Source: a virus
Lineage: Duplodnaviria; Heunggongvirae; Uroviricota; Caudoviricetes
DNA length: 12,246 nucleotides
Reading direction: 5' to 3' (one strand)
IMG/VR virus record: IMGVR_UViG_2548876950_000019
Shown: positions 9,001 to 12,000 of the stretch, piece after piece
How the letters are laid out: the number at the start of each line of letters is the position of its first letter
Numbering within the stretch: the first letter of the stretch is position 1
Position numbers: made by a program

Positions 9001-12000
9001 GAGATGTTTGCTGAGTGCGCATACACACTTGAACATCATGATCACGCAGTAGCCTTCGCCGCTGAGCTTCGCAAAGGAGGCAACCAGTGAGTAATTCAGC
9101 ACGACTACAGCTTGGTTTTTCACCGCTATCAAAAACTATCATGCTGGCAAAAATGCGCGATGTTGAAGGTGGACGTATGCGCGTTGGCAATGATCCAGGT
9201 CGTGATGTTACCAATGAGGCTGCTCAATTGGTGTGGCGACTGGTCATGGCTGAAGGTGGTGAGATCGCGTGGGAGCTGGATGATGGTTCTCGCATGGTGT
9301 TGAAGGCAGAAAAGCAGGAGGCAACCAGTGAGCAAGATTGACTATCAGGCACTGCGAGAGGCGGCAGAGGTCGCGAAGGAGGAGACGACGTGGCAGAACC
9401 TACAGGCTTTTCATGCTGCGGCTACGCCGGAGGTTGTACTGGCATTGCTTGATGTATTGGACGCATCACTGGAAGCAGAGCCAGTTATGTTCTGTATATC
9501 AGGACAAAATGTAGATTCAGAAGAACATGTATCAACCAGCAAAGCGGTTGTTGATGCCTGGGTTGAAGAATGGAATCAGGTTGACGGAAGTCCTGGCGCC
9601 CCCCTGTACAAAACTATGCCACTCTACTGTCACGCTGCCTTGCCAGTACCTGTAGTGCCTGAAGGACTGGTTAAAGCGGTGCGTTTTTATGAGCAGGTAA
9701 AAAATGAGAATCCGCCAGTTGGGACTGGTGCGTGGAAAGACGCTGTTGACTGGGTGCTCGAAGAAGCTTGCCTGGCTGTAAATATAGGCATCAAAGGAGA
9801 GTGATATGACAACTTTGACAAAAAAAGAACGGGCATGGTTGAACGACTTACAGGACGTTCTTGATCGCTGTCCATCGCCGAAAAAAATTGGCTTTTACAC
9901 CATTGGCGATAAAAACATTTACCTGTATGACCTACGCCGCATGGATGAAATCATGGAGGCTCTTGATAATCGTTCGTCAATGGATTGGTGTGCTGCTGTT
10001 CATGATATGAATGCCGGATTTGATGAAACGATTTTATTCCCCTCGTCAGTTGAAAGCACTGCGGGTTAAGGAGTAACACATGACCACTTTTACCGACAAA
10101 GAACTGATTAAAGAAATCAAAGAGCGCATAGGCAGCCTGGACGTGCGAGACAATATTGAGCGTCGTGCTTATGAAATTGCTCTGGCGTCGCTGGAAGCAG
10201 AGCCGGTTGCAGTAAACGACGACATGGCATACGCATTCCATCACGCATTGTCAGATTCATCGCTAGGCGCTGATGAAGTAGAGGAAATTAAGGCCGGTTT
10301 GCGTGCTGCCTTTGCCAACGTCACTATCCAACCAGAGCCGGTAGTGCCGGATGAAATCGAGTTAGCAATTGAAAATCTCAAGCAGAAGTTAGTGGAATGC
10401 AATCGCTATAACTACTGCGCAGATGCAGTGAAGAACGTAGAGGATGCCTGCCGTGCTGTTAGCTATAGCCAAGCCGACAATCAGCCAGCATCTGGCAACC
10501 AGGCTGCCGAATCCAATCGCGGTAATGAGTGGACTGGCAATCCTGATATTGATAACGCCATCATCATGCTCGACCGCATAGATACGCTGGAAAATTGCGA
10601 TGATGACCGTATTGAGGCTGTTAAGGCTGTTTTGCGTAGACTGGCTGGCAACTCTCCGGTAACTCCGGATGGTTGGATAAGCTGTAGTGAGCGAATGCCT
10701 GAAAAGGGCCAGAACGTGCTTATTTCGGTGAATTTCGATAGCTCTCTGGTTGAACCGCTAATATGCTCCGCACGCTATACCGGAAGCACCTTTCGGCGCG
10801 GAGATGTAACGATTAAGCCGGGTAATGGTATTGAGCAAGCAACTCACTGGATGCCGCTACCGAAACCGCCGCAGGAGGTAAACCGTGGCTAACTTGCAAC
10901 TTGCCGTTAAAGGTGAATACTTCGCAGATAGTTTCCCCCAAATCTGGGGAAAAGCCCGAATGGCGCGGCTTACAGCAAGATAAGGCCTACATGATTTGAC
11001 AAATCCGCATTAACGGGGCTATATTCCGCTTCATGGTGCTGAACACACCTTGCAAAGCGGAAACCGCACCCGTCAGTCATGCGGCTTTTTTATGTCCATT
11101 TCTCAGATATGGTCGGGTAGCGCGTATACCGAAAAACAACCGAAAGGTTAAGGATACGGGCCGACTTTGCACGGTGTTCAAGTACCTGACCGCCCTGCTG
11201 AACACAGGGCTATCTGAACAAATGCAAAGGGCATAAAAATGACCAGTCAACTCATCCCCGTATTCAACGGCACTATCGCCAACGAAACCACTCTTCTCGT
11301 TAATGCTCGCGATTTACATACTTTTCTTGGGGTAGGTAAACGCTTTGCATCGTGGATTACAGAACGCATTGCTGAATATGGTTTCGTTGAAAATCAGGAC
11401 TATATTTTGGTTTCCCCAAATCGGGAAATCAAAGGTCGAGGAGGCGATCGCCGTAGCAAAGACTATCACCTCACCCTCGATACAGCCAAAGAAACTGCGA
11501 TGGTGGAGCGCAACGAAAAAGGCCGCCAGATACGCCGATACTTCATCGAGTGCGAAAAGAAACTTCGCAGCATGCAACCAGCGCAGCAATTCACAGACGA
11601 GGAAATCATCCTCCTCTGCTACATGCAGGTACAGATGGAGAATGCACAGGACATCTGCAAACACCTGTACCCGATAATGAAGGAACTTAACTCATCATAC
11701 GCGAGCAAGCTGTATGACATCGCGTTTGAAACCTTCTACGCGGTGACGAAAAACAGAGACGCACTTCTCAGGGAGGCAACACGAATTGACCAGACAAGCG
11801 CCATTTTCGAACGGGCAAGACCAATGTTAAAAAGCCTTCGGGCGAGACAATTCGAATTTTAATATCAAAGGAGCTTCGGCTCCTTTTTTTACAGGTGAAA
11901 CTTAATGAAATTCAAAGTCAGAGGTGAATGGAATGGAGAGCCATTCAACAGAGTTATCGAAGCGGAGAACATCAACGACTGCTACGACCACTGGATGCTG

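What the first reader, a model, noticed from the sequence alone, without database searches (positions are those of the whole stretch)
9075..9332. Duplicated 16-bp gene-junction cassette GGAGGCAACCAGTGAG at two consecutive gene boundaries
The identical string GGAGGCAACCAGTGAG occurs at 9076-9091 and 9317-9332. In both places it supplies the SD (GGAGG) and the GTG start of the next gene while overlapping the end of the previous gene. This looks like a conserved boundary sequence where modules are exchanged by short-homology recombination; the 9087-9341 gene may have been inserted between two copies.
Basis: seen in the sequence. Interest (0 to 1): 0.5.

Follow-up and report, generated by a model that had tools for sequence, protein, structure and literature searches.

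The report
Reused gene-junction connector flanking a phage cassette
A 16-17 bp ribosome-binding/start sequence repeated on both sides of one small prophage gene is a standard connector that joins many unrelated accessory genes in E. coli and Salmonella phages, and it marks where those genes are swapped; this is a clear example of a known kind of phage mosaicism, not a new mechanism.

Summary
GGAGGCAACCAGTGAG occurs exactly twice (9076-9091, 9317-9332). Identity is 17 bp exact and 19/20 when extended, and it is not chance. Each copy supplies a strong SD, a 6-nt spacer and the GTG start of the next gene, and overlaps the end of the previous gene, though in two different reading frames.

The sequence is a widespread connector of lambdoid and P22-like accessory-gene (ead/ea22-type) arrays. 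In 130 exact occurrences in IMG/VR it joins 35 upstream to 37 downstream gene classes in 75 pairings, close to free reassortment.

The 225-nt DUF7446 cargo between the two copies is 97-100% identical across 24 different flanking-gene contexts. E. coli genomes hold an "empty site" in which the same upstream gene runs through a single copy into an Ead/Ea22 gene. Elsewhere, other genes sit between two copies.

- The 16-mer is the invariant core of a longer degenerate homology patch.
- It is one allele of a junction family.
- A second connector lies at 9793-9808.

Homologous exchange is inferred, not shown. The concept is established (Susskind-Botstein; Clark 2001), so this is a new member of a known kind.

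The parts
9075..9091 (+). Connector copy 1: AGGAGGCAACCAGTGAG. It holds the SD (AAGGAGG with the preceding A), the 6-nt spacer CAACCA, the GTG start (9087) of the DUF7446 gene, and the TGA stop (9088-9090) of the upstream gene (GTGA overlap).
   Evidence: The same start is annotated by PGAP in L202.
9316..9332 (+). Connector copy 2: the identical 17-mer. It holds the SD, spacer and GTG start (9328) of the Ead/Ea22-like gene. The DUF7446 gene reads it in the +1 frame (…QEATSEQD*) and stops at 9339-9341.
9087..9341 (+). Cargo gene between the copies: an 84-aa DUF7446 family protein (PF24233, phrog_1578), function unknown. The 225 nt between the copies are 97-100% identical in 43 non-identical contexts (12 upstream x 15 downstream gene classes).
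8557..9090 (+). Upstream gene: 177 aa, no Pfam family, chimeric PHROG hits. Its last ~35 nt (9055-9090, …FAAELRKGGNQ*) form the conserved C-terminal tail that commonly precedes the connector.
9328..9804 (+). Downstream Ead/Ea22-like gene (PF13935). Its first ~40 nt (9328-9369, VSKIDYQALREAAE) are the conserved N-terminal block that commonly follows the connector.
9793..9808 (+). A second, different connector (AAAGGAGAGTGATATG) at the next gene boundary (stop 9802-9804, ATG 9806). It was chosen as a control but showed the same flank reassortment.
2796..4495 (-). RecT-family annealing protein (2796-3677) and PDDEXK-like nuclease (3674-4495) of the same prophage. This is the candidate machinery for short-homology exchange; that role is inferred, not tested.
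   Evidence: properties of Rad52-like phage recombinases from PMC3945230

Best explanation
The repeat is two copies of a standard connector used in the accessory-gene arrays (ead/ea22-type genes, DUF7446, DUF551 and others) of lambdoid and P22-like phages of Escherichia, Shigella and Salmonella.

Role in expression (inferred from anatomy): each copy is the ribosome-binding site and GTG start of the downstream gene. It is placed over the end of the upstream gene, so the genes of one transcript are translationally coupled.

Role in evolution (inferred from comparative patterns): the same sequence sits at many boundaries, so it provides a patch of identity at which phage and prophage genomes recombine. 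The likely agents are phage single-strand-annealing recombinases such as the RecT encoded in this window. Exchange reassorts whole genes without damaging either neighbour.

In this window a DUF7446 cassette is bracketed by two connector copies. It arrived either as a unit by crossovers in the left patch (C-tail plus connector, about 9055-9091) and the right patch (connector plus Ea22 N-terminal block, about 9316-9369), or by two separate crossovers. Recombination between the two copies would delete it scarlessly and give the single-copy junction seen in other genomes.
For: Shown:
- The repeat is exact and non-random.
- The exact 16-mer occurs in at least 120 IMG/VR contigs. All but one of the 132 occurrences examined (window included; the exception is cut off by a contig end) are at a gene boundary. 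The upstream stop lies inside the motif in 90, and the upstream gene reads through in the +1 frame in 37. A downstream ORF of at least 50 codons starts at the GTG in 120.
- Among the 130 IMG/VR occurrences it joins 35 upstream and 37 downstream distal gene classes in 75 pairings (with the window's two copies 35-36 x 38 and 77). One search gives 77 pairings, against about 89 expected under free assortment and about 38 under full linkage.
- DUF7446 cargo is 97-100% identical (median 98.7%) between contexts whose flanking genes both differ.
- An empty site exists. The left flank of copy 1 is 92% identical to L200, and the right flank of copy 2 matches L200 for about 37 nt. The reciprocal flanks match only at background, 23-27%.
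- Alignment edges cluster at the connector: alignments end at 9091, start at 9055-9073 and end at 9347-9369. E. coli hits end exactly at the motif or begin 5-11 nt before it.
- Other cargos lie between two copies elsewhere.
- Hybrid cassettes exist, with the connector at one end and another junction allele at the other (L176), as does an in-frame 242-nt variant.
- P22 ea genes use junctions of the same design with different spacers. The spacer is therefore not functionally fixed, and exact identity implies copying by descent.
- RecT and a nuclease are encoded in the window.

Published background: Rad52-like phage recombinases recombine short, diverged homologies (PMC3945230). Exchange at 'flanking, short and conserved sequences' in lambdoid phages is attributed to Clark et al. 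2001 (PMC2327257).
Against: - No recombination event was observed; everything rests on comparative patterns.
- The loci were mostly retrieved by the exact motif, which inflates its apparent invariance.
- The 17-bp repeat is shorter than the published minimal efficient pairing segment (23-27 bp for Redbeta, 31-34 bp for RecA).
- Between junctions joining unrelated genes, the uninterrupted identity spanning the motif has a median of only 22 bp and reaches 23 bp or more in 43% of pairs.
- Most alignment edges lie at the outer borders of the longer conserved junction rather than at the 16-mer itself, so the crossover point cannot be placed inside it.
- Mosaic joints are also common elsewhere in the array, including inside genes, so connectors are not the only exchange points.
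- Translational coupling was not tested.
Confidence: 0.75

Rival explanations
1. Illegitimate (non-homologous) recombination plus selection for intact genes (the Hendrix model). Joints form at random and only those at gene boundaries survive. The 16-mer is simply the 5' leader that each gene, mostly of the Ead/Ea22 family, carries with it, so its repetition reflects gene homology and not a recombination substrate.
For: Most downstream genes after the motif are Ead/Ea22 family members with a conserved N-terminal block. Lambda ea22 has that block from GTGAG onward with an unrelated upstream sequence. Out-of-frame fusions of upstream genes to the motif, such as the DUF7446 tail QEATSEQD*, look like joints made at microhomology (GGAGGC) and not by homologous exchange. 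Mosaic joints also occur inside genes.
Against: The same 16-mer precedes clearly unrelated genes: DUF7446, a PAPS-reductase-like gene, an ~86-aa Cys-rich protein, a 124-aa protein and a 214-aa protein. It follows 35 unrelated upstream classes. The DUF7446 cassette carries it at both ends in 24 contexts. Random joints would not regenerate one identical 16-mer on both sides.
Confidence: 0.12
2. Purely functional repetition. The sequence is an optimal translation-initiation/coupling element that was selected independently at both boundaries, with no role in gene exchange.
For: It contains a 6-7 nt SD, a 6-nt spacer, a GTG start and (in copy 1) an overlapping TGA. No promoter or terminator separates the genes.
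Against: Spacer and wobble positions are identical although they are free to vary. P22 and more distant DUF7446 alleles use GGAGACAGCCCAATGAG, GGAGTGCAGTCATGA and GGAGGCCGCCCAATGAG in the same role. One-mismatch variants, including GTG to ATG, occur. Function alone does not explain why alignment edges and presence/absence polymorphism coincide with the motif.
Confidence: 0.07
3. Site-specific insertion. The DUF7446 gene is a mobile element that targets this sequence and duplicates it (a target-site duplication), or it is an integron-like cassette.
For: The occupied site has two copies and the empty site has one, as for a target-site duplication.
Against: The 241-nt unit is filled by one 84-codon ORF, with no room for a transposase. 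No terminal inverted repeats were found and no significant hairpin (z -0.6 and -1.9). Many unrelated cargos use the same flanks. The only integrase is a phage-type enzyme 8 kb away at the prophage end.
Confidence: 0.04
4. Chance coincidence of two similar ribosome-binding sites.
For: Both are SD-plus-start regions, so part of the sequence is constrained.
Against: 0 of 200 shuffles gave a match. The analytic expectation is about 0.004. The same string recurs at more than 120 phage gene junctions.
Confidence: 0.01

Closest known systems
Short conserved boundary ('linker') sequences of lambdoid phages (modular theory of Susskind and Botstein 1978; Clark et al. 2001, HK620), as summarised in PMC2327257
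   Same: A short sequence conserved among related phages at module or gene boundaries. It is flanked by unrelated genes in different phages and is proposed to be the site of homologous exchange.
   Different: I could not read Clark et al. 2001, so I cannot say whether this particular 16-mer is described there. Here the element is also the RBS/start of the next gene. It occurs in both early-left (ea) and nin-region arrays, and it brackets single-gene cassettes.
P22 ea-gene junctions (eaE/orf45, eaF/eaD) and lambda ea22
   Same: The same gene families and design. EaE ends …AAQLRKG…* with an ATGA overlap. eaD starts GGAGACAGCCCAATGAGCAAC (MSNIDKQALRE). Lambda ea22 starts GTGAGCGAAATTAAC….
   Different: P22 and lambda carry other junction alleles and do not have the exact 16-mer.
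PeSL cassettes (promoter-early stem-loops) of T4-type phages, PMC2839356 and PMC4122927
   Same: Repeated short regulatory motifs between small non-essential genes. They mediate insertion, deletion and replacement of ORFs by recombination between copies.
   Different: PeSLs are a promoter plus terminator hairpin and can form mini-circles. The connector here has no promoter, terminator or hairpin and acts at the translation level.
Mycobacteriophage Island3 gene 68 insertion flanked by a ~50-bp repeat of the 3' end of gene 67 (PMC3029335)
   Same: A single small gene inserted at a gene boundary and flanked by a short direct repeat, which the authors attribute to recombination between short homologous sequences.
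   Different: That is a one-off event with a longer repeat. Here the repeat is a population-wide connector shared by dozens of gene families.
Overlapping stop/start (ATGA/GTGA) translational coupling in bacterial and phage operons
   Same: An SD inside the upstream gene, with the start codon overlapping the stop (copy 1).
   Different: At copy 2 the upstream gene ends 11 nt past the start codon, because this connector is 1 nt shorter than the native DUF7446 3' junction.

Membership tests
Conserved boundary/linker sequence for homologous module exchange in lambdoid phages | A short sequence conserved across related phages and located at gene boundaries | tested here: met
   At least 120 IMG/VR contigs carry it, and all but one of the 132 occurrences examined (window included) are at junctions. 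The 64-nt canonical junction is found in 359 phage records.
Conserved boundary/linker sequence for homologous module exchange in lambdoid phages | Flanked by non-homologous genes on either side in different genomes (reassortment) | tested here: met
   35 x 37 gene classes in 75 pairings among 130 IMG/VR occurrences. One search gives 77 pairings, near the free-assortment expectation of about 89.
Conserved boundary/linker sequence for homologous module exchange in lambdoid phages | Homology breakpoints between genomes coincide with the sequence | tested here: met
   Alignment edges fall at 9091, 9055-9073 and 9347-9369. E. coli hits end at the motif or start 5-11 nt before it. The occupied and empty sites align as predicted.
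Conserved boundary/linker sequence for homologous module exchange in lambdoid phages | Homology long enough for the recombination system | tested here: inconclusive
   The exact run has a median of 22 bp and reaches 23 bp in 43% of unrelated pairs. The published MEPS is 23-27 bp (Redbeta) and 31-34 bp (RecA).
Conserved boundary/linker sequence for homologous module exchange in lambdoid phages | Exchange at the sequence demonstrated experimentally | not testable with these tools
   This needs phage crosses.
Translationally coupled overlapping gene junction | SD 5-9 nt upstream of a start codon that overlaps or abuts the upstream stop | tested here: met
   GGAGG, then 6 nt, then GTG. Copy 1 has a GTGA overlap and copy 2 a 14-nt overlap.
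Translationally coupled overlapping gene junction | Downstream translation depends on upstream translation | not testable with these tools
   This needs reporter fusions.
Transposable element with target-site duplication | Terminal inverted repeats and/or a transposase, with the duplicated sequence varying by site | tested here: not met
   There are no inverted repeats at the cargo ends. The cargo is one 84-aa DUF7446 ORF. The flanking sequence is the same at every site and for unrelated cargos.
Integron gene cassette | An attC-like imperfect hairpin at the cassette end and an adjacent IntI integrase | tested here: not met
   No significant fold was found and there was no Rfam hit at the site. 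The only integrase is phage-type, at 1-1251.
PeSL regulatory cassette (T4-type phages) | A sigma-70 early promoter plus a stem-loop terminator | tested here: not met
   No promoter- or terminator-like site lies at either copy, and no hairpin. It resembles a PeSL in how it works but is not a member.

The most novel reading that the evidence does not exclude
The ea and nin accessory-gene arrays of enterobacterial temperate phages may form an integrase-free gene-cassette system. It would be built on a small vocabulary of standard connectors; at least two are present in this window, at 9075-9091/9316-9332 and at 9793-9808. Each connector would be both a translational coupler and a homology arm of roughly recombineering size for the phage's own annealing recombinase. 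Single genes would then circulate scarlessly between operons, between phage types (lambda-like, P22-like, epsilon15-like) and between hosts. This would give a concrete, testable instance of the 'linker' model of phage mosaicism.
Probability: 0.35. Interest if true: 0.55.

Novelty: new member of a known kind. Interest (0 to 1): 0.4.

Why it matters
How phage genomes become mosaic has been argued for decades. One view is homologous exchange at short conserved boundary sequences. The other is random illegitimate joining followed by selection. This locus is a compact and abundant natural example that favours the first route for small accessory genes. One 225-nt cargo is nearly identical in 24 gene contexts and is always bracketed by the same connector, with empty sites and hybrid junctions available for comparison. 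It therefore offers a simple experimental system (recode the connector, then measure exchange and expression separately). It is also a practical annotation rule: the connector marks true GTG starts and cassette limits in ead/ea22-type arrays. It does not reveal a new mechanism.

Tried and rejected
- The genome-contig scan for the 16-mer was uninformative.
- Clark et al. 2001 (HK620) is not held. A broad literature query returned noise, and two literature calls failed on syntax. The Ea22 papers do not discuss the junction.
- RNA-level explanations were set aside. There is no Rfam family at either copy and no significant fold (z -0.56 and -1.92).
- The control junction TAAGGAGTAACACATG behaved as an ordinary junction plus chance hits. 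The other intended control, AAAGGAGAGTGATATG, turned out to be a second connector, so it could not serve as a negative control.
- An attempt to estimate junction-allele frequencies upstream of Ead/Ea22 starts, using loci not selected for the motif, gave only 13 contexts. That set is depleted for the exact motif by construction, so I used it only qualitatively.
- No genome in the E. coli collection joins the window's exact upstream and downstream genes through a single copy. The empty site found shares the upstream gene and only the conserved first ~37 nt of the downstream gene.
- Target-site duplication and integron readings were considered and rejected.
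Full report
**1. Observation**

GGAGGCAACCAGTGAG occurs exactly at 9076-9091 and 9317-9332 on the + strand. There is no further copy at up to 2 mismatches, and no match in 200 dinucleotide-preserving shuffles. Identity extends one base to the left, giving a 17-mer at 9075-9091 / 9316-9332. The repeat finder reports 19/20 identity over 20 nt. Beyond that, the flanks of the two copies are unrelated to each other.

At copy 1, GTG 9087 starts ORF 9087-9341 and TGA 9088-9090 ends ORF 8557-9090. At copy 2, GTG 9328 starts ORF 9328-9804. The upstream ORF reads the motif in another frame (…QEATSEQD*) and ends at 9341. The repeat is therefore conserved at the DNA/RBS level, not as a shared peptide.

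**2. Context**

The window is the early region of a lambdoid prophage. Its genes are:
- integrase (1-1251)
- MT-A70 methylase
- RecT (2796-3677, -) and a PDDEXK nuclease (3674-4495, -)
- an HTH repressor
- an O-like replication protein with DnaT and HTH domains (6436-7251)
- replication protein P (7233-8033)
- DUF1064 (8151-8495)
- then an array of small genes: 8557-9090 (no Pfam family), 9087-9341 (DUF7446), 9328-9804 (Ead/Ea22-like), 9806-10069, and 10080-10892 (DUF551)
- then an AntA-type gene

No promoter- or terminator-like site separates the array genes. A near-identical E. coli prophage (NZ_CP148401) is annotated by PGAP with the same three genes and the same starts.

**3. The motif elsewhere**

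The 132 occurrences examined are the 130 in those loci plus the window's two. All but one lie at a gene boundary; the exception is cut off by a contig end. In 90 the upstream gene stops inside the motif (GGA GGC AAC CAG TGA). In 37 it reads through in the +1 frame and stops a few codons into the next gene. A downstream ORF of at least 50 codons starts at the GTG in 120.

The commonest context is …GC(C/T)GCCCAGCTTCGCAAA-[motif]-CAAGATTGACTATCAGGCACTGCG. This is a conserved C-terminal tail (…AAQLRKGGNQ*) followed by the conserved N-terminus of Ead/Ea22 proteins (VSKIDYQALRE). Many occurrences instead have unrelated sequence directly abutting the motif on one or both sides. Conservation falls to background about 20 nt upstream and 45-60 nt downstream.

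A 64-nt canonical junction is found in 359 phage records. These include Escherichia, Stx-converting, Salmonella P22-like, epsilon15/phiV10, mEp and HK629 phages.

**4. Reassortment**

I clustered the distal flanks (-330..-30 and +50..+350). The 130 IMG/VR occurrences give 35 upstream classes, 37 downstream classes and 75 distinct pairings among the 123 with both flanks. With the window's two copies included the counts are 35-36, 38 and 77 of 125.

A permutation test gives 77 pairings observed, about 89 expected under free assortment and about 38 under complete linkage. The residual association is only 9% of the maximum.

**5. The cassette in this window**

I fetched eighty loci by DUF7446 protein homology, independent of the motif.
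- The close alleles carry the motif, or a 1-mismatch variant, at both ends: 44/80 exact at each end.
- More distant alleles carry related but different junctions: GGAGCCGC(A/C)C(T/A)ATGAG at the 5' end and CAGGAGGCCGCCCAATGAG at the 3' end, encoding …KAEKQEAAQ* with an ATGA overlap.

That native 3' junction is 1 nt longer than the motif. This explains why, with the motif, the DUF7446 frame misses the TGA and runs 9 nt into the next gene.

Among 43 non-identical motif-bracketed cassettes, the 225-nt cargo is 97-100% identical (median 98.7%) even when both flanking genes belong to different classes. There are 12 upstream classes, 15 downstream classes and 24 pairings. Hybrids exist: L176 has the motif at the 5' end and the native junction at the 3' end, and a 242-nt variant restores the in-frame …KQGGNQ*.

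**6. Empty site and other cargos**

I built a synthetic DUF7446-less join of the window's flanks and searched E. coli genomes.
- H73-H80 align in one piece across a single motif copy, from the homologous upstream gene into an Ead/Ea22 gene.
- H91-H93 end exactly at the motif's 3' edge.
- H72 and H81-H90 start 5-11 nt before the motif.

In the explicit alignment, the left flank of copy 1 is 92% identical to L200, and the right flank of copy 2 matches L200 for about 37 nt. The reciprocal comparisons are at 23-27%, which is background.

A BLAST edge map of the window against all fetched loci puts alignment starts at 9055-9073 and ends at 9091 and 9347-9369.

Elsewhere, two copies of the motif bracket whole Ead/Ea22 genes (195-254 aa), an ~86-aa Cys-rich protein, a 124-aa protein and a PAPS-reductase-like gene.

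In L200 and L201 the upstream-gene homologue lies in the early-left region, next to anti-RecBCD or RecT genes. In this window it lies after the replication genes. The cassettes therefore move between operons.

**7. Not unique**

I chose the next boundary in the window (AAAGGAGAGTGATATG, 9793-9808) as a control. It turned out to be a second connector, with 58 upstream classes, 46 downstream classes and 92 pairings, and it sometimes occurs twice per contig. The boundary at 10067-10082 behaves as an ordinary junction.

P22's ea genes have the same design with other alleles. EaE ends …AAQLRKGVQS* with an ATGA overlap, and eaD starts GGAGACAGCCCAATGAGCAAC. Lambda ea22 shares only the part from GTGAG onward.

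Different spacers evidently work in the same role. The exact identity of the 16-mer therefore reflects copying by descent, not convergence on an optimal RBS.

**8. Mechanism**

Inferred for expression: a strong SD (AAGGAGG / AGGAGG), a 6-nt spacer and a GTG start lie over the upstream gene's end, within a single transcription unit. This is the anatomy of translational coupling.

Inferred for evolution: homologous or homeologous exchange at the connector patch. [quoted passage not shown] The window encodes RecT plus a nuclease.

The 17-bp repeat alone is below these values. Between junctions joining unrelated genes, the uninterrupted identity spanning the motif has a median of 22 bp (IQR 19-28). 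It is at least 23 bp in 43% of pairs and at least 31 bp in 17%. The 16-mer is thus the invariant core of a patch that often, but not always, suffices.

The out-of-frame fusion of DUF7446 to the connector suggests that a gene first acquires a connector through a microhomology joint (shared GGAGGC). After that it can move by homologous exchange.

No RNA family or significant structure is associated with the motif.

**9. Comparison with known systems**

The idea that short conserved boundary sequences mediate module exchange in lambdoid phages is established. PMC2327257 cites Clark et al. [quoted passage not shown]

Analogues are the PeSL cassettes of T4-type phages (PMC2839356) and a mycobacteriophage gene insertion flanked by a ~50-bp repeat (PMC3029335).

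The connector is not a transposon footprint, an attC site or a PeSL, because the defining features of each were tested and not met.

**10. Verdict**

This is a new and unusually clear member of a known kind, of moderate interest.

Caveats:
- Ascertainment by the exact motif inflates its apparent invariance.
- IMG/VR sampling is dominated by enterobacterial prophages.
- The primary HK620 paper could not be read.

Noticed in passing
window 9793-9808: AAAGGAGAGTGATATG lies at the boundary of the Ead/Ea22 gene and the next gene. It is a second conserved connector: at least 120 IMG/VR contigs carry it, with 58 upstream and 46 downstream gene classes. In some contigs it occurs twice, at spacings of 217, 576, 909 and 921.
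   Followed up: partly
window 11111-11199 (+): Rfam hit to sRNA-Xcc1 (RF02221): 69.3 bits against a gathering score of 53, E = 3e-11, full-length match. A strong sigma-70-like promoter (TTGACA-18-TATATT, 11 of 12) lies about 85 nt upstream at 10996-11025. The hit sits between the DUF551 gene and the AntA-type gene.
   Followed up: no
window 6778-6851: Three tandem ~24-nt repeats (CCCAAAAACGGGATGTTGAATGATCC…, starting at 6778, 6802 and 6826, with a related partial copy at 6698) lie inside the O-like replication gene 6436-7251. They look like origin iterons.
   Followed up: no
window 9463-9486 and 10185-10208: A 24-nt direct repeat (88% identical) encodes ASLEAEPV in both the Ead/Ea22-like gene and the DUF551 gene. 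The closest E. coli prophage (L202) diverges from the window right after the first copy (~9482), and there the gene continues as a DUF551 protein. This points to an intragenic mosaic joint.
   Followed up: partly
window 8557-9090 and 9328-9804: Both genes flanking the cassette hit several different PHROG families on different segments (for example phrog_492/614/250 and phrog_26213/660/250). The proteins themselves therefore appear to be chimeras of shuffled modules. Conserved islands such as ATDAF and TPDGWISCSERM recur in many contexts.
   Followed up: partly
window 10873-10892: A degenerate third copy of the connector (AGGAGGTAAACCGTGGCTAA, 75% identical to copy 1) lies at the 3' end of the DUF551 gene. 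It may be a decayed junction or a chance match.
   Followed up: no
L200 (NZ_CM128606 1855258-1860594) and L201 (NZ_AP038814 1742624-1747925): In these E. coli prophages the homologue of the window's 8557-9090 gene lies in the early-left region, beside anti-RecBCD/DUF2737 or RecT genes. In the window it lies downstream of the replication genes, so the same cassettes occupy different operons. L201's array is full of pseudogenised Ead/Ea22 and DUF551 fragments.
   Followed up: partly
L203-L282 (genome-contig scan): The exact 16-mer recurs in many Paraburkholderia species genomes. It is presumably part of an unrelated conserved gene there and was not examined.
   Followed up: no
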